Of a DNA stretch of 13,076 nt, positions 5,872-10,573 are shown one piece after another (position 1 is the first letter of the stretch; each line of letters begins with the position of its first letter). The translations under genes were made by a program, and so were the position numbers. The notes under the pieces were generated by a model. The model made no database searches, was not told the DNA's origin, and was given only the letters and a program-made list of their open reading frames with translations. This DNA comes from a virus (taxonomy: Duplodnaviria > Heunggongvirae > Uroviricota > Caudoviricetes). The stretch lies in the IMG/VR virus record IMGVR_UViG_2778261393_000007, positions 1-13,076 of that record. The stretch is one strand, 5' to 3'.

Positions 5872-7640
5872 TTTTCATGGATTTTTGGCACAGCGGGTAA
5901 CCATTCATTAGCACTGTCAGCCAGCTCCATGTTGTAGCGCATTCCGACATTGGTCTTTGCCTTCTTATACTCAGCCCCATATTCTTTCATCACTTTTGGG
6001 AAATCTTTGCCAAAATTAGTTAGATTTAATGGCTTATCGAAACCATAAGCATCCATATATGCAAGATATGCATGGTAAAGATAAATTCGAGGGGCTCTTG
6101 GATATATATTCAGGTTTCCCATGAACATTCCTACAGCTTCACCAAGTTCGACAATATGGTTACAAAAAGCATATAGCGGATCAGTATGGCGTTTTACTTC
6201 CATTGCTTCTTCACCATCACGTTGTTCGAGCAGTAATGTTCTTGCTTTTTCGGGATCTGAAAAATTTACCAACAGCCTACGGACTATTACCGGAATTTCC
6301 GCTGCAATTTTTTTGGGTAAACATGTGTCCTTGTTTTCTTCCGCTATCGGATTATTGAACTGAAAAATAACCCTACGGCGTGAAATACCTCCCGCTCTTT
6401 CTGTAAAAACCATCGGTTTATTATTTGTTATCAAAACAACTGAGCGTAAGACAGTGGTGTATCTTTTTTCATATTTCGGGTTAATTTGCAGAGGATCCCC
6501 ACCTGTTATAGCTTTAATACCATTACCTTCACCAAAATATTTAGGTTGGTCCGGTAAAATAATCAGACTTTTACCAACTAGTTGCTCACGTCCACCAGCA
6601 TCATCTAACGCTTTCATATCACTGCCTGCGGTGTTCTGCTCACCCGCCAACATTCTGGCAATTTGAGTAAACATACTTTTACCACTTCCACCTTCGCCAG
6701 TTGCTTCAATGAATAATTGCCAGTCGTAGCGATTAGCCAAAACCATAAACAGAGCAGCACATATCCGCTTCATCTTTGATGAATCGTATCCTGCTGCATG
6801 TGACAGCCAACGATGAAAATGGGGCGCATGGTCATGAATATTTTCACCAGGCGCAGGTGGCGTATAATAAATTCCATTATGCGAAGTGATCCAGTGCTCT
6901 GGTGAATGAGGTAAAAATCTACCACTTGTTATGTCATAAACTCCATTTTCAAAAGGTATTATGGTGTCACTCTGTTCTCTCATTACGGGTACAGATATTT
7001 TTAAAGCATCAACCGCATTACTAATTGCCCGCTTACTGAAATTTGTCTTGTTTTTTTCGTAAATTGATACCATTTTACGACTCAACTCCATATCAGATAT
7101 TTTTTCCCACACTCCAGAACAGTATGCATAAGCAAAATTGTTACCCGGGTGAACAGCTATTTCCTCAAAGCATTCAGCCAAAAGTGAAGCTCGCTCGTTA
7201 TCCGCCATTCTGGAAAGAGAGATTTTGTGTTTTTTCTCAGTCCTTCCTGACAGAATATCCCCGCGCTCTGCCTGTTCGCGGATCCGTTGCAGGTAATCGC
7301 GCCAGTTCTCCGGTTCCCGGTCGGTGATGCCTTTGTATAATTTCGCCTCCTGTACGCCAGCCAGCGCCAGTTTTTCAGCGATAGCATTGATCTGGATTGG
7401 TTCGATCTCCCCCGCGAGATAGACACGCGCAAAGCGGCGTTCATCGTCGACAATGCGGATATTCACCAGGTCTGCCAGTTGCTTTGGCCCCAGGTAAACA
7501 GGTGGTACGTTATCGCCGTGTTTTCGTCCTTCGCTTTCAATCCAGTGTTGAGCATGGGGGTAAGCGTCCGTCCCGGCAAAAATGATTACCTCGGTGAATT
7601 TATCCTTCGGCTGATATTTTAAATTCGGTGCGTTTTTCAC
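5868..7640 (-). CDS. phage/satellite primase-helicase (Toprim-like N-terminus + P-loop NTPase), P4 alpha-like
   Basis: 590-aa ORF. Walker A GEGGSGKS; N-terminal TEVIIFAGTDA ... IRIVDDE consistent with a Toprim acidic motif. GTG start at 7640 with GGAGG SD; GTGA overlap with upstream stop. Confidence 0.88.
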   Translation of the reverse strand: MKNAPNLKYQPKDKFTEVIIFAGTDAYPHAQHWIESEGRKHGDNVPPVYLGPKQLADLVNIRIVDDERRFARVYLAGEIEPIQINAIAEKLALAGVQEAKLYKGITDREPENWRDYLQRIREQAERGDILSGRTEKKHKISLSRMADNERASLLAECFEEIAVHPGNNFAYAYCSGVWEKISDMELSRKMVSIYEKNKTNFSKRAISNAVDALKISVPVMREQSDTIIPFENGVYDITSGRFLPHSPEHWITSHNGIYYTPPAPGENIHDHAPHFHRWLSHAAGYDSSKMKRICAALFMVLANRYDWQLFIEATGEGGSGKSMFTQIARMLAGEQNTAGSDMKALDDAGGREQLVGKSLIILPDQPKYFGEGNGIKAITGGDPLQINPKYEKRYTTVLRSVVLITNNKPMVFTERAGGISRRRVIFQFNNPIAEENKDTCLPKKIAAEIPVIVRRLLVNFSDPEKARTLLLEQRDGEEAMEVKRHTDPLYAFCNHIVELGEAVGMFMGNLNIYPRAPRIYLYHAYLAYMDAYGFDKPLNLTNFGKDFPKVMKEYGAEYKKAKTNVGMRYNMELADSANEWLPAVPKIHEK

Positions 7641-7927
7641 TTCTTACCTCCCGCAACCAACATTGCCCGGATTTTTTTAATATTCGTGGCTGCACGTCTC
7701 GCCACCGCCTGTTGTTTGTTTTCAACCAGAATAAAATCACGCTCAAACTGACGGCGCGGCATTACGCAGTCATATTCGTAAGCCTCACGGCGGTAGGTGA
7801 TATTGCCTGGCGTAACGTGACGAATAACCACCCGTCCCCCGCGTCTGGTGTCCCGGAAAATATCACCGGGGCGGATTTCAGGCCGAGAGAGGCCGCTGGC
7901 AGTAAAGCCAGAATTTTTCTTTTTCAT
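7637..7927 (-). CDS. hypothetical small protein (96 aa)
   Basis: ORF ending in GTGA overlap with the primase start; 4-nt gap after the upstream gene. Confidence 0.6.
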   Translation of the reverse strand: MKKKNSGFTASGLSRPEIRPGDIFRDTRRGGRVVIRHVTPGNITYRREAYEYDCVMPRRQFERDFILVENKQQAVARRAATNIKKIRAMLVAGGKK

Positions 7928-7931
7928 GGTT

Positions 7932-8132
7932 TTATTTTCCTGTCAGCAGTTCCGGTTTTATTTCCGCACGAATACAAAGTTCAGAAAAAAATTCAGGAGA
8001 ACCAACAATCTCATTACTTTTCAGTCGGCATTGTGATTTCACTTTCCCTTTATCCAGGTAAACCAGTACGCGTCCGGTGAAATCATCTGGCACATTAAGC
8101 ACTACGGGTACATGCGCTTCATGATTATGCAT
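7932..8132 (-). CDS. hypothetical small protein (66 aa)
   Basis: ATG 8132 with GGAGG SD; ATGCATAA start/stop overlap with upstream gene. Confidence 0.55.
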   Translation of the reverse strand: MHNHEAHVPVVLNVPDDFTGRVLVYLDKGKVKSQCRLKSNEIVGSPEFFSELCIRAEIKPELLTGK

Positions 8133-8358
8133 GACTTACATCCTCCGTGAATTTTCTTCTGTAACGCGTCTCTGCCACATATTCCGCATAGTCCGACGCA
8201 ATACTAAGAATCATTTCACCCTCTGACTTGTAGCCATTGGTATTGATAAGAAAACATGCAGCTTTCATCATGTCAGCAACGCTCAACAATGCGCCCGATG
8301 TATCTTCCGGTGCGCCATCAAACTCCCGTTTCAGGGAATTAAAACGATCATCACGCAT
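8125..8358 (-). CDS. hypothetical small protein (77 aa)
   Basis: ATG 8358 preceded by GGGGGGGAA SD; ATGCGTGA overlap with upstream stop. Confidence 0.6.
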   Translation of the reverse strand: MRDDRFNSLKREFDGAPEDTSGALLSVADMMKAACFLINTNGYKSEGEMILSIASDYAEYVAETRYRRKFTEDVSHA

Positions 8359-8716
8359 GTTTCCCCCCCTGAATGACCTGATAACCGCAACTGGTCAGCA
8401 ATTCGATAAATTCCGGCAATGTGCCGAAACAGTAATCATCACGCAGACGTTCGCGGGATACTTCAACGCCGTTTTCGTAGTGACTCACCATACACCCGGT
8501 AAAATGCAGATCATCATCGTGATGGCTCGTTGACGGCTTAATCAGTCGCGCACGTTCCGCCAGTTCCAGCAATGCTTCAACGCTTCCGGCAATTGCACCA
8601 TCCGGCAGGTGGTAATTACGCACTATGCGCCCGTTCTCCACATTGACCAGCAACTGCCCGGTAAATTTCTCGTCAAACTGAATGCTGTTAAGGTCAGAAA
8701 TTGACAGGTTATGCAT
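8351..8716 (-). CDS. hypothetical protein (121 aa)
   Basis: ATG 8716 preceded by AGGAGG (6-nt spacing); ATGCATAA overlap with upstream stop. ORF-track start at 8734 lacks an SD. Confidence 0.6.
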   Translation of the reverse strand: MHNLSISDLNSIQFDEKFTGQLLVNVENGRIVRNYHLPDGAIAGSVEALLELAERARLIKPSTSHHDDDLHFTGCMVSHYENGVEVSRERLRDDYCFGTLPEFIELLTSCGYQVIQGGKHA

Positions 8717-8933
8717 GGTGCACCTCCTGCACATCAGCCATGATAATTTTTCCGGTCTTATCCAGTGCCTGATCGGCTTTTAGCTGCACAAATGCTAAAT
8801 AATGGGAGATGCATTCTGATTCTCTGGCTGCGTGTTTATGCGCCACACCAGCGATAGCAGAAATCTCAATAAGTGAATCCATCAGCGTTTTGATAGCGTC
8901 TACCGCTGCATCAGGCCATGTTGCATTACACAT
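8709..8933 (-). CDS. hypothetical small protein (74 aa)
   Basis: ATG 8933 preceded by AGGAGGTGG SD; ATGTGTAA overlap with upstream stop. Confidence 0.6.
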   Translation of the reverse strand: MCNATWPDAAVDAIKTLMDSLIEISAIAGVAHKHAARESECISHYLAFVQLKADQALDKTGKIIMADVQEVHHA

Positions 8934-9129
8934 GCTCCACCTCCTGGCGAATACGGGCAGCGAATACCATCACGCAGCCATCAGGAGATTGCTGGCGTGC
9001 TTCCTGTTCGCTGGTGACCTCGATGTGAATTACGCGCGGTTGTGCCGTGCTCAGGGCGATAAAACGCCAGATGTATTTATTCAGGTTGTGCGAGTCCCGC
9101 CCTTGCGGGTGTGTGGTATGATTTCTCAT
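8926..9129 (-). CDS. hypothetical small protein (67 aa), first gene of the leftward replication operon
   Basis: ATG 9129 preceded by GAGGTAGCT SD. Lies immediately left of the AT-rich divergent regulatory region. The ORF track merges it into a 284-aa ORF, which I reject as a single gene. Confidence 0.5.
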   Translation of the reverse strand: MRNHTTHPQGRDSHNLNKYIWRFIALSTAQPRVIHIEVTSEQEARQQSPDGCVMVFAARIRQEVEHV

Positions 9130-9208
9130 AGCTACCTCGATACTCTTGCTATCGTTGGTGGTTAGACGCCCTGCATGTGTTGCGAGCACTGCGGGGCGTT
9201 GCTCTTTC

Positions 9209-9322
9209 AGGTGTATTTCACCTTTGCTTTTTAATTTACTCACTGGTGAAATACACTTCAAGCCTTTTTTTATCATTTTTTTTGCGTATACTGACATACA
9301 CCAATTTTTAGGAGATCCAGAA
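9209..9322. promoter_or_regulatory. divergent promoter/operator region with 12-bp perfect inverted repeat
   Basis: GTGTATTTCACC (9211-9222) and GGTGAAATACAC (9245-9256) separated by 22 bp. T-rich tract and TATACT (9287-9292) upstream of the plus-strand small gene; AGGAG SD at about 9311-9315. Confidence 0.5.
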
Positions 9323-9502
9323 ATGGCAACTGGTGCAAAGAACGCAAAATCACAAATGACAACTGTCAGAATCCCACATGAAGTAATGGATGATATTGAG
9401 CAACTTAAAGAACCTGGCGAAAGTACCGCTGGTTTTTTAGTTACTGCCGCAAAAGGCGAGATCAAACGCCGCCAGCGGCGCAAGGCCAAAGAACAGGAGT
9501 AG
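9323..9502 (+). CDS. small putative regulator (59 aa, RHH-like)
   Basis: ATG 9323 with AGGAG SD 7 nt upstream and a -10-like TATACT. TTVRIPHEVMDDIEQL...STAGFLVTAAKGEIKRR is compatible with a beta-strand plus two helices (RHH), by eye. Divergent from the leftward operon. Confidence 0.55.
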   Translation: MATGAKNAKSQMTTVRIPHEVMDDIEQLKEPGESTAGFLVTAAKGEIKRRQRRKAKEQE

Positions 9503-9772
9503 TTGATCAGCACCTGGCAACCTGACAAAATCGCATCAGTCACGCCACCAGCAAAATTTTTTGCTTTCCGGACAGCGTGGCCAACGGCATTTTGCAGCGA
9601 AATATTCTGCATTTCTGGCGTGCTGTAGTAACGGTGATCAGTGCCTTCACTCTGTGCGACCACAACGCTATAATCTGCCTCGTAGACAGTAAGCAATATG
9701 GCGCAGTAGGCTATTCGTTCACAAAGGCGCTCCGGCAACGGGGCGCTTTCTCTTTTTGTAACGGTCAGAGCG

Positions 9773-10573
9773 TTACACATGGCTGTTTTCCTCCATGCGA
9801 CGGGCTAACCAACGCTGCGAAAGACGAATTAATTCAGCTTTCCGCTGGTGGTAGCCCTGGCCTAACTCAATCAGCGTGATATTGCTCTGCTCAAGGTAAG
9901 AAAGGTGCTCAAGCTGCAACGTGCTCATGTGGTCGCGTGGTTCGCCTGTGATGCCGTTCGCCTGCGCCCACTGTTTTGCAGTCATGCCACCCAGCACGAT
10001 ACGCGCCAGCATATTGGCTTCCGTGGTGTAGTGGTGCTGGAACGTGTTTTTACCCAGTTCAGCCCGGTACGCCTCCAGCGCGGCACACATTGGCTTAAAG
10101 TAGCTGGCAACGGTGATACGGGCTTTCAGTTCCCGGCGTAATGCTGCGGAACGCACTGGCGCTACCTTGTGTAGCTCCTCCTCGCATTTGATAAAGTACT
10201 GGCGAACGGCGCGGCCCTGTTCGGTACGTTCGACCATCGCCAGTTCTTTCGCCATGTTCACTGTGATGATGTACTCAAGAGCGGTTTGCTGGCGAGATTT
10301 TGCGCTCACCGGATCGGGTCGGCTCAAATATTCAACAACCTCATAATCCACGCCTTCCGTGAACCCGTATTCTTCAATGCGCCCCTTGATCCACGAACGG
10401 AAAACGCGCCCTACACCTAACGCCTTATGTAACGCTCTGGCGCTAACAATAGTGGTTTCACGCCCACCAATAACGCCGGAAATAACCGGGATAATTTCAC
10501 CAAAATTTTGCAGATTCTGGTTTTCAGGCCGAACGAAGCCCTGCCCCTGTACGGGCGTTTTTGGAAATTTCAT
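9773..10573 (-). CDS. AntA-like phage antirepressor family protein
   Basis: 266-aa ORF. ATG 10573 with AGGAG SD (8-nt spacing). SARALHKALGVGRVFRSWIKGRIEEYGFTEGVDYEV matches the AntA/AntB N-terminal domain pattern (by eye). Confidence 0.7.
   Translation of the reverse strand: MKFPKTPVQGQGFVRPENQNLQNFGEIIPVISGVIGGRETTIVSARALHKALGVGRVFRSWIKGRIEEYGFTEGVDYEVVEYLSRPDPVSAKSRQQTALEYIITVNMAKELAMVERTEQGRAVRQYFIKCEEELHKVAPVRSAALRRELKARITVASYFKPMCAALEAYRAELGKNTFQHHYTTEANMLARIVLGGMTAKQWAQANGITGEPRDHMSTLQLEHLSYLEQSNITLIELGQGYHQRKAELIRLSQRWLARRMEENSHV

What the first reader, a model, noticed from the sequence alone, without database searches (positions are those of the whole stretch)
8926..9780. An 855-nt stop-free frame runs through a small gene, the switch region and the antisense of the plus-strand regulator
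Seen: the minus-strand frame that starts with ATG at 9780 (coupled to the AntA stop) has no stop codon until 8926. It spans a plausible gene start (9780), the antisense of the 9323-9502 gene, the AT-rich switch region (low-complexity K-rich translation) and a well-supported small gene (9129-8926). A random open frame of this length in roughly 50% GC DNA is improbable (order of 1e-6 under a uniform model). Possibilities: a real gene beginning at 9780 whose true end is masked; an overprinted or programmed read-through product; or a frame kept open by constraints of the opposite-strand gene. I could not resolve which applies.
Basis: partly seen in the sequence, partly recalled or inferred. Interest (0 to 1): 0.45.

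Follow-up and report, generated by a model that had tools for sequence, protein, structure and literature searches.

The report
Read-through frame across a satellite's switch
The 855-nt open frame is real and conserved: it looks like the counterpart of phage P4's nested eta/kil genes, a frame kept free of stop codons so ribosomes can travel from the upstream operon through the element's on/off switch into a small Kil/Icd-like gene, here running backwards through the regulator gene itself.

Summary
The minus frame 9780..8926 (284 codons) has no stop, while the other five frames of the same stretch have 9-21.

From this window alone the evidence is only moderate. Shuffles of the whole window give stop-free runs up to 259 codons, against 293 here. 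The comparative evidence is what decides it:
- In 77 complete loci found only through the 67-aa Icd-like core, the same frame stays open upstream for a median of 293 codons, and for at least 130 in 75 loci. It does so through many unrelated mosaic modules.
- All 97 alleles of the retained opposite-strand ORFs (at least 6-8 families) sit in the one phase where wobble positions coincide.
- The extension shows no codon-position periodicity (23/23/22 and 13/12/16, against 16/13/34 in the Icd core). Stops are excluded, but the amino-acid sequence appears unconstrained.

The core belongs to the same NCBIfam family as P4 Kil. P4 Eta is the experimentally described in-frame upstream extension of Kil, and its translation prevents termination.

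Best reading: an eta/kil-type nested pair in a PICI-like satellite. P4's RNA immunity region is replaced here by a divergent YlcI/YnfO gene with operator-like repeats. I rate it a new variant of a known kind. The mechanism is inferred, not shown.

The parts
8926..9780 (-). Long open frame (eta-like form), 284 codons, from ATG 9780 to TAA 8928-8926.
   Evidence: One search lists the ORF. One search finds 0 stops here against 9-21 in the other frames. The frame is conserved in 75 of 77 complete loci anchored only on the Icd core.
9790..9794 (-). GGAGG Shine-Dalgarno sequence, 9 nt before ATG 9780. The ATG overlaps the AntA stop (ATGTGTAA, TAA at 9775-9773).
   Evidence: Sequence. The junction is identical in 22 AntA-type sequences (this window included). 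Other junction types also carry an SD and an ATG beside the upstream stop. P4 eta starts the same way (ATGA overlap with the vis stop).
9773..10573 (-). AntA/AntB-family gene. It is the upstream co-oriented gene to which the long frame is coupled.
   Evidence: Pfam AntA, E 2.5e-23. RefSeq annotation in L001 and L248.
9724..9759 (+). Hairpin plus T run. It looks like an intrinsic terminator for the plus-strand YlcI unit. It lies inside codons 11-19 of the long frame (SAPLPER).
   Evidence: Found. The plus-strand RNA folds at -22.6 kcal/mol (z -5.3) and is followed by a U run. The minus-strand RNA folds at -15.7 (z -2.8) with a poor U run. The SAPLPER motif recurs at the start of the frame in different upstream contexts.
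9503..9723 (-). Stop-free stretch with no known gene on either strand.
   Evidence: P(no stop) = 0.017 in shuffles. Variable sites by codon position are 13/12/16, so there is no periodicity. No family hit.
9323..9502 (+). YlcI/YnfO-family gene (59 aa), probably the switch regulator. It is read antisense by the long frame, with wobble positions coinciding.
   Evidence: NF041551, E 9e-18. phrog_949. AGGAG at 9310-9314. The variability pattern 20/36/47 fits plus-strand coding.
9287..9292 (+). TATACT, probably the -10 box of the YlcI promoter.
   Evidence: Its complement CAGTATAC is a conserved block in alignment A1 across otherwise diverged intergenic alleles. This is a consensus match only.
9233..9261 (-). 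Probable internal promoter for the short form: -35 TTGAAG 9261-9256, 17-nt spacer, -10 TAAATT 9238-9233. It would be the counterpart of P4 PLE.
   Evidence: TTGAnn is conserved in all 11 aligned alleles (TTGACG, TTGAAG, TTGACA or TTGAAA). A TAnnnT-type box follows at the right spacing in most of them. The stricter scan did not report it. Inferred, not mapped.
9211..9256 (.). 12-nt inverted repeat, GTGTATTTCACC (9256-9245) and GGTGAAATACAC (9222-9211), flanking the -10 box. Probably an operator.
   Evidence: Found. Several of the aligned alleles carry two copies of a different GTG-N5-CAC sequence at the same places. Binding was not tested.
9127..9199 (-). Leader of the short form. It has a hairpin at 9199-9166 with compensatory changes, then a block of about 40 nt (9166-9127) that includes the SD GAGG (9138-9135) and ATG 9129. 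Outside a variable hairpin loop of about 7 nt the block is nearly invariant.
   Evidence: fold z -2.6; 6 of 15 pairs with changes on both sides. Outside that loop the block barely varies, wobble positions included, so the constraint is on RNA or DNA rather than on protein.
8926..9129 (-). Short nested gene (67 aa), a Kil/Icd-like protein. It forms the C-terminal part of the long frame.
   Evidence: NF033153, E 7e-19. P4 Kil hits the same family at E 1.6e-21. Third-position excess 16/13/34. RefSeq annotates it in L001.

Best explanation
The stretch is a nested gene pair of the phage P4 eta/kil type, sitting in the 'Bro zone' of a PICI-like satellite. The element's gene order is int, AlpA, AntA, switch, small genes, D5-type primase.

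The short form (9129-8926) is a Kil/Icd-like protein. It has its own SD and ATG and is made from a promoter inside the switch region. That promoter probably lies at 9261-9233 and is flanked by operator-like repeats. It is presumably controlled by the divergent YlcI/YnfO protein.

The long form starts at ATG 9780. It is coupled to the AntA stop and can only be translated on transcripts that come from the upstream alpA-antA operon.

Its proposed job is to be translated, not to supply a particular protein sequence. Ribosomes would follow RNA polymerase through the hairpin at 9749-9724, the antisense of ylcI, the promoter and operator region, and the structured leader. The transcript would then not be left naked for Rho or hairpin termination. 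The downstream replication operon could therefore be expressed whatever the state of the switch.

Shown here:
- the frame, its start signals and its family membership;
- its conservation across mosaic relatives;
- the absence of a detectable amino-acid-level signal in the two stretches where that could be tested;
- the phase-locking of the opposite-strand genes.

Inferred by analogy with P4:
- translation of the long form only on upstream transcripts;
- suppression of termination;
- YlcI acting as the repressor.
For: Family link:
- The window core and P4 Kil both match NF033153 (E 7e-19 and 1.6e-21). They align at 26% identity, E 0.008.

P4 precedent:
- In P4 the frame 8168-8812 contains Kil as its last 65 codons. 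It runs through the C4/CI RNA gene, the isrK-like match and the c4-a1b1 targets.
- It starts with an ATGA overlap on the vis stop.
- PMC10111431, summarising Forti et al. 1999, states three things. Kil is a truncated Eta made from an internal constitutive promoter. Full Eta needs the upstream late promoter and is coupled to the alpA homologue. Eta translation prevents termination.

Conservation:
- 77 complete loci found only through the Icd core have a median of 293 open codons upstream, and 75 have at least 130.
- The sequence in those open stretches that shows no blastn similarity to other loci adds up to 2223 codons. The two off-frames of that sequence carry 138 and 168 stops.
- The same test recovers the experimentally known P4 eta in 76 of 80 loci.

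Start signals:
- SD plus ATG beside the upstream stop occurs in several independent junction types.

No detectable amino-acid constraint:
- Variable sites by codon position are 23/23/22 (intergenic) and 13/12/16 (9503-9723), against 16/13/34 in the Icd core.
- The extension has 4.6% Cys, 11.1% Ser and 6.4% Asp+Glu, which resembles antisense translations.

Fusion is not required:
- In Edwardsiella (L005) a 239-codon in-frame ORF covers the switch and stops 5 codons before the kil ATG.

Phase-locking:
- 97 of 97 retained opposite-strand ORF alleles are wobble-aligned. Zero antisense stops are observed against 65 expected under synonymous resampling.

Internal promoter and operator-like repeats are conserved inside the frame.
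Against: - There is no expression, ribosome or termination data for this element. The mechanism rests on analogy with P4.
- The P4-specific parts are absent: no Phage_ASH domain and no C4/isrK RNA in the window or in 20 relatives.
- No Rho-dependent terminator has been identified here.
- About a third of related loci have no ATG with an obvious SD near the 5' end of the open frame (classes such as L044 and L032). Entry into the frame is unclear there.
- The loci are mostly E. coli relatives sharing more than 88% identical cores. They are therefore not independent, although their upstream modules differ.
- 'Zero stops' is partly by construction, because open segments were defined by the first stop.
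- A convergent YlcI transcript and its terminator lie in the path of the proposed read-through.
Confidence: 0.6

Rival explanations
1. The long frame encodes a real multi-domain protein of the domain-swapping 'Bro network'. Its middle part has a sequence-dependent function, and the small opposite-strand genes are overprinted on it.
For: - In some relatives the frame begins with a true BRO-N or AntA N-terminal segment and runs without a stop to the Icd-like end (L031, L036, L025).
- PMC10111431 classes P4 eta and Phage_ASH as Bro-network genes.
- GenBank records annotate forms of 284-435 aa.
Against: - The stretches that overlap no known gene show no third-position excess (23/23/22 and 13/12/16).
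- The extension's composition resembles antisense translation.
- No family matches anything outside the Icd core.
- The middle part is replaced wholesale by unrelated modules between loci.
- The conserved 'residues' coincide with promoter, operator and SD elements, which are invariant at wobble positions too.
- In L005 the long ORF ends before the kil ATG.
Confidence: 0.15
2. The frame is translated, but the purpose is to act on the regulator. Ribosome-coupled antisense transcription through ylcI would silence the repressor by transcriptional or RNA interference and so commit the switch. Rescue from termination would be secondary.
For: - The frame always covers the whole plus-strand unit, from its terminator hairpin to its promoter.
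- All opposite-strand genes are kept in the compatible phase.
- The two promoters face away from each other, about 30 nt apart.
Against: - P4 eta has the same signature without any antisense gene, so antisense silencing cannot be the general reason.
- Nothing here measures YlcI levels.
- This reading is compatible with the best explanation rather than exclusive of it.
Confidence: 0.15
3. The frame is a by-product with no function: a chance open frame, helped by the codon make-up of the opposite-strand gene and by shared ancestry of the loci.
For: - The YlcI antisense segment is open 59% of the time by chance.
- Antisense ORFs of 150-186 aa occur elsewhere in this window.
- Shuffles of the window reach 259 stop-free codons.
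- The sampled loci are related to one another.
Against: - The frame is open in 75 of 77 complete loci, through modules that share no detectable similarity. The off-frames carry about 6.8 stops per 100 codons.
- Intergenic alleles down to 74% identity show 72 inferred changes but no stop.
- All retained opposite-strand ORFs share a single phase.
- SD and ATG are coupled to the upstream stop.
- The few broken cases look like recent frameshift, nonsense or insertion events.
Confidence: 0.05

Closest known systems
Phage P4 nested genes eta and kil (Forti et al. 1999, J Bacteriol 181:5225, known to me through PMC10111431 and my own recollection; the paper itself was not available)
   Same: - A small Kil/Icd-like gene of the same NCBIfam family, with its own start, lies downstream of an internal promoter.
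- An in-frame upstream extension starts at the stop of the preceding co-oriented gene, with an SD and overlapping start and stop.
- The frame runs through the element's immunity or switch region.
- The frame is conserved among relatives.
- The element layout matches: int, AlpA-type gene, eta/kil, small genes, primase.
   Different: - P4's extension carries the Phage_ASH domain and contains the CI (C4) RNA gene and its seqA/seqC targets. Here there is no ASH domain and no C4 or isrK match.
- Here the frame instead runs antisense through a divergently transcribed YlcI/YnfO protein gene, its terminator and a promoter/operator region.
- It is coupled to AntA rather than directly to the AlpA homologue.
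- It is 284 codons here (up to about 650 in relatives), against about 197 in P4.
Phage P1 immI operon (c4 RNA, icd, ant1/ant2) - from my own knowledge
   Same: - A small Icd-type gene is the first translated gene of an operon controlled by the immunity system.
- It is translationally coupled to neighbouring genes.
- An antirepressor-type gene lies in the same operon.
   Different: - In P1, icd lies upstream of ant and is controlled by the c4 antisense RNA.
- I know of no long in-frame upstream extension through a divergent protein gene in P1.
- P1 Icd itself was not compared here.
Gram-negative PICI 'Bro zone' (Integration-Bro-Replication-Late layout, PMC10111431)
   Same: - int, AlpA, AntA and a D5-type primase/DUF5906 occur in that order and orientation.
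- Bro and AntA segments fused in frame with the long ORF in relatives fit the described domain swapping.
   Different: - That paper describes immunity RNAs inside Bro genes.
- In the parts I read, it does not describe a frame running antisense through a YlcI/YnfO gene, or the phase-locking of opposite-strand genes.

Membership tests
P4 eta/kil-type nested gene pair | The C-terminal part is a Kil/Icd-like domain. | tested here: met
   NF033153 matches the window core at E 7e-19 (67.6 bits, cut-off 25) and P4 Kil at E 1.6e-21.
P4 eta/kil-type nested gene pair | The short form has its own ribosome-binding site and start, downstream of a promoter that lies inside the long frame. | tested here: inconclusive
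   GAGG at 9138-9135 and ATG 9129 are invariant. -35/-10-like boxes are conserved across diverged alleles. The strict promoter scan did not report this promoter, and no transcription start has been mapped.
P4 eta/kil-type nested gene pair | The long form is in frame, starts upstream of that promoter, and is coupled to the stop of the preceding co-oriented gene. | tested here: met
   ATG 9780 overlaps the AntA TAA, with GGAGG 9 nt upstream. P4 has ATGA overlapping the vis stop.
P4 eta/kil-type nested gene pair | The long frame is conserved among relatives. | tested here: met
   75 of 77 complete loci keep at least 130 open codons. The P4 control gives 76 of 80.
P4 eta/kil-type nested gene pair | The extension carries the Phage_ASH (PF10554) region. 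| tested here: not met
   P4 Eta residues 37-161 match PF10554 at E 4.5e-23. The window ORF and the relatives P0110 and P0075 give no match at E up to 0.1-1.
P4 eta/kil-type nested gene pair | The CI/C4 immunity RNA and its target sites lie inside the long frame. | tested here: not met
   C4, isrK and c4-a1b1 are found in P4. None is found in the window at E up to 1 or in 20 relatives at gathering score.
P4 eta/kil-type nested gene pair | Translation of the long form prevents premature (Rho-dependent) termination of upstream transcripts. | not testable with these tools
   This needs transcript and termination assays. Only the selective signature (stops excluded, amino-acid sequence apparently free) is shown.
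P4 eta/kil-type nested gene pair | The short product is toxic or inhibits cell division. | not testable with these tools
   Only family membership is shown.
YlcI/YnfO family (plus-strand gene 9323-9502) | A match to the family's N-terminal model above the curated cut-off. | tested here: met
   NF041551, 64 bits against a cut-off of 30. phrog_949, E 2e-20.
Gram-negative PICI-type satellite | Co-oriented int, AlpA, Bro-type gene and primase modules, followed by late genes. | tested here: met
   Pfam finds Phage_integrase, Phage_AlpA, AntA, D5_N/Pox_D5/DUF5906, and then ProQ and DUF2213. att sites and helper dependence were not examined.

The most novel reading that the evidence does not exclude
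The switch region may be a phase-locked two-strand coding unit.
- Any regulator or cargo gene that settles on the plus strand must sit with its wobble positions aligned to a minus-strand 'transit' frame.
- That transit frame is selected only to stay open.
- Ribosome-coupled polymerases coming from the alpA-antA operon would use it to run head-on through the repressor gene. This would bypass the repressed promoter and shut down the repressor, committing the satellite to replication.

If so, this would be a general rule of construction for a large class of enterobacterial satellites, and a clean natural case of selection for translation as such rather than for a protein.
Probability: 0.3. Interest if true: 0.75.

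Novelty: new variant of a known kind. Interest (0 to 1): 0.6.

Why it matters
- Long antisense ORFs are normally dismissed as artefacts. Annotation pipelines treat this one inconsistently: the same kind of locus is called as 67, 123, 134 or 284 aa and longer.
- Here the frame is conserved across dozens of mosaic alleles, yet the two stretches that could be tested show no sign of selection on the amino-acid sequence. That points to selection for ribosome passage itself.
- If the P4 logic holds, many PICI-like satellites of E. coli and its relatives have a built-in way to express their replication genes past a protein repressor.
- The opposite-strand regulator genes would then be constrained in phase and in codon choice by a frame that encodes nothing in particular.
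- The idea can be tested directly with point mutations that are silent in YlcI.
- It would also give annotators a rule for these loci.

Tried and rejected
- Rfam scan of the window at E up to 1 gave only two sub-threshold, unrelated hits, far from the finding. Twenty relatives gave only int-alpA RNA, far upstream. A P4-type RNA immunity region is therefore rejected.
- tblastn of the Icd core against the phage collection did not find P4. The link came from the NCBIfam profile instead.
- The genome-contig scan gave only 3 loci, because the peptide patterns were too specific.
- A scan with a four-sequence alignment returned the same 80 loci as before and added nothing.
- Forti et al. 1999 could not be read.
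- Two literature searches for YlcI/YnfO, Icd-like, ash family and similar terms found no description of this arrangement.
- A search for a trans-acting partner complementary to the near-invariant leader found only the local 12-nt inverted repeat.
- 'A separate small gene 9780 to about 9510' was rejected.
- 'Constraint from YlcI alone' was rejected.
- Structure prediction was not run. A shallow alignment of near-identical sequences would not discriminate between the readings.
- One search failed because a search term was too short. One search timed out and was rerun.
Full report
**Observation**

The minus-strand ORF 8926..9780 (284 aa, ATG start) exists exactly as described.
- Its ATG overlaps the stop of the AntA-family gene (ATGTGTAA, TAA at 9775-9773) and is preceded by GGAGG at 9794-9790.
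- The frame is open from 9804.
- It crosses four stretches: 9503-9780, which has no known gene; the antisense of a YlcI/YnfO-family gene (9323-9502, +; NF041551, E 9e-18); the 41% GC intergenic region 9130-9322; and an Icd-like gene, 9129-8926 (NF033153, E 7e-19).
- The other five frames of these 855 nt carry 9-21 stops each.

**Is it more than chance?**

For the pre-specified frame, dinucleotide shuffles give P(no stop) = 0.006 for 9503-9780, 0.012 for 9130-9322, and 0 of 20000 for 9130-9780.

Two cautions apply.
- Random shuffles of the whole 13-kb window already contain stop-free runs with a median of 161 codons and a maximum of 259 in 300 shuffles, against 293 here.
- The antisense of YlcI is open 59% of the time under synonymous codon resampling. 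In that phase a stop needs a His, Gln or Tyr codon preceded by a particular wobble base.

The window alone is therefore suggestive but not compelling.

**Comparative evidence**

A protein search with the 284-aa translation returned many full-length forms of 283-286 aa (73-99% identity) and longer forms of 327-485 aa. Sources name them 'Icd-like' or 'ash family'. That ranking favours open frames, so I built a sample anchored only on the 67-aa core. It has 83 loci from viral and genome collections.
- In 77 loci not cut by a contig end, the core's frame stays open upstream for a median of 293 codons. The range is 5-586, 75 loci have at least 130 and 70 have at least 200.
- The upstream parts are strongly mosaic. 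They include at least eight different intergenic alleles, one to three opposite-strand genes, different regulators, and different upstream genes.
- After removing everything that shows blastn similarity to another locus, 2223 codons of open frame remain. The two off-frames of the same sequence carry 138 and 168 stops. Zero stops is partly by construction, because segments end at the first stop.
- The exceptions look like recent damage or prove the rule. L040 has a frameshift that splits the ORF. L028 has a nonsense change plus a frameshift. L051 has a cargo insertion. In Edwardsiella (L005) a 239-codon in-frame ORF covers the whole switch and stops five codons before the Icd ATG.

**What kind of selection?**

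Variable sites were counted by codon position of the long frame:

| Segment | pos 1 / pos 2 / pos 3 | Reading |
|---|---|---|
| Icd core | 16/13/34 | Normal coding |
| Next gene, in another frame | 42/25/25 | Excess at that gene's own third position, a control that behaves as expected |
| Antisense of YlcI | 20/36/47 | The pattern expected for YlcI on the plus strand |
| Intergenic 9130-9322 | 23/23/22 | No periodicity |
| 9503-9723 | 13/12/16 | No periodicity |

- Stops are therefore excluded, but the two stretches that overlap no known gene show no amino-acid-level signal.
- The extension has 4.6% Cys, 11.1% Ser and 6.4% Asp+Glu. That resembles antisense translations of real genes, not the window's real proteins.
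- No Pfam, NCBIfam or PHROG family matches anything outside the core.
- Of 138 distinct opposite-strand ATG-ORFs of at least 45 aa inside the open frames, 97 lie in the phase where wobble positions coincide with those of the long frame. These 97 include the YlcI-type family (47 alleles), a second family (31 alleles) and several smaller ones, at least 6-8 families in all.
- The other 41 ORFs (33 in a second phase, 8 in the third) I judged spurious from their composition alone.
- Synonymous resampling of the 97 predicts 65 antisense stops. None is seen.

The constraint thus seems to run from the long frame to the opposite-strand genes, not the other way round.

**Start signals**

- The AntA-type junction (GGAGG, 9 nt, ATGTGTAA) is identical in 22 sequences, this window included.
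- Other junction types also carry an SD and an ATG within about 22 nt of the upstream stop. Examples are the AlpA type with GTGAGG, Klebsiella with GGAGG and an ATGA overlap, and a GGGGGAG type.
- About a third of loci lack an obvious ATG at the 5' end of the frame. This remains unexplained.

**What lies inside the frame**

Alignment of 11 diverged alleles shows conserved blocks that are regulatory rather than coding.
- One block is the complement of the YlcI start.
- Another is CAGTATAC, the complement of a TATACT -10 box at 9287-9292 (+).
- There is a -35 box TTGAnn (TTGACG in most alleles, TTGAAG here at 9261-9256). A TAnnnT-type box follows 17 nt later in most alleles (9238-9233 here).
- Two copies of an allele-specific GTG-N5-CAC sequence flank the -10 box in several alleles. 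In the window they form a 12-nt inverted repeat, 9256-9245 and 9222-9211.
- The leader carries a hairpin with compensatory changes.
- A block of about 40 nt ends in GAGG-5 nt-ATG 9129. Apart from a variable hairpin loop of about 7 nt it is nearly invariant, wobble positions included.

At the other end, the hairpin at 9724-9749 followed by a T run is a good terminator for the plus-strand unit (-22.6 kcal/mol, z -5.3). It is weaker on the minus strand (-15.7, poor U run). It sits 31-56 nt after ATG 9780, where translating ribosomes would melt it.

**Comparison with what is known**

- P4 Kil (the last 65 codons of the P4 frame 8168-8812) matches the same NCBIfam model (E 1.6e-21).
- That P4 frame starts with an ATGA overlap on the stop of the AlpA homologue vis.
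- It runs through the CI (C4) RNA gene and its targets.
- Its N-terminal part is the Pfam Phage_ASH family.
- PMC10111431 summarises Forti et al. 1999 as follows. Kil is a truncated Eta made from an internal constitutive promoter. Full-length Eta is translated only from the upstream late promoter and is coupled to the alpA homologue. [quoted passage not shown]
- As a positive control, P4-Kil-anchored loci show the same comparative signature: 124-160 open codons in 76 of 80.
- The window element has the matching layout: int, AlpA, AntA, this region, small genes, D5-type primase, then ProQ and DUF2213.

**Conclusion**

The ORF is best read as an eta/kil-type nested pair.
- Same as P4: the Kil family, the nesting, the coupling to the upstream gene, passage through the switch, and conservation of the frame.
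- Different from P4: no ASH domain and no C4/isrK RNA. The frame instead runs antisense through a divergent YlcI/YnfO gene, its terminator and a promoter/operator region.

I found no description of this variant in the searchable literature. Annotation is inconsistent: RefSeq calls the Icd-like gene as 67 aa in L001, 134 aa in L002 and 123 aa on DNA identical over 9130-9790 (L248), while GenBank has forms of 284 aa and longer.

The proposed mechanism is that translation from upstream transcripts protects them from termination and bypasses the repressed internal promoter. This is inferred by analogy and from the selective signature. It has not been shown.

Confidence:
- that the frame is under selection to stay open and is translated: about 0.85;
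- in the specific anti-termination or bypass role: about 0.6.

Noticed in passing
window 9211-9256: A 12-nt inverted repeat (GTGTATTTCACC / GGTGAAATACAC) flanks the putative -10 box of the internal promoter. Several of the aligned alleles carry two copies of a different GTG-N5-CAC sequence at the same positions. This looks like an allele-specific operator, presumably for the YlcI-type protein.
   Followed up: partly
window 9127-9199: The leader of the Icd-like gene has a hairpin with compensatory changes. It is followed by a block of about 40 nt that barely varies, wobble positions included, across alleles and genera (E. coli, Edwardsiella). The exception is a variable loop of about 7 nt in a small CGATA/TATCG hairpin that abuts the SD. 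No complementary partner was found in the window.
   Followed up: partly
window 9773-9780, 8926-8933, 8709-8716: Successive genes of this operon are joined by the same 8-nt start/stop overlap: ATGTGTAA twice, giving the N-termini MCNA..., and ATGCATAA once. This suggests a chain of translational coupling and may mark recombination junctions between modules.
   Followed up: no
L009, L020, L044, L006 and others, inside the long frame (absent from the window): A recurrent element translated as ...KTKAT...(15-25 codons)...AAGGQ... is found in most longer relatives, including Klebsiella. Its ends look complementary, and on the opposite strand a T run follows. It could be a second terminator or a small RNA of the plus-strand unit.
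   Followed up: no
L005 2266-2985 and 3001-3219: In Edwardsiella hoshinae a 239-codon ORF in the same frame covers the antisense of YlcI and the switch, but it stops five codons before the Icd-like ATG. Translation through the switch is kept without making a fusion protein.
   Followed up: partly
L001, L002, L248 and proteins P0005-P0120: Annotation of the Icd-like gene is inconsistent: 67 aa, 134 aa, 123 aa on DNA identical over 9130-9790, and 284-485 aa in GenBank. The PHROG label 'transcriptional repressor' (phrog_6196, phrog_1743) looks like a legacy of the old P4 'cI protein' annotation. I infer this from NC_001609, which still annotates its old 'cI gene product' CDS (8168-8584) as a transcriptional repressor.
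   Followed up: partly
window 2591-3151 (+) and 7628-8080 (+): Two other long antisense ORFs (186 and 150 aa) lie opposite real minus-strand genes (the DUF2213 gene and small genes). I did not check whether they are conserved, so they may simply be shadow ORFs.
   Followed up: no
window 4292-4361 (-): Two tandem GC-rich hairpins, each followed by a U run, gave a sub-threshold Rfam hit to ncr1175 (32 bits against 60). They lie downstream of the ProQ/FinO-family gene (4649-5227) and probably form a terminator.
   Followed up: no
L004 117-185 and L024 32-99: The Rfam int-alpA RNA motif (RF02996) lies about 2.9 kb upstream of the Icd-like gene in two relatives. The window gave no such match at E up to 1.
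   Followed up: no
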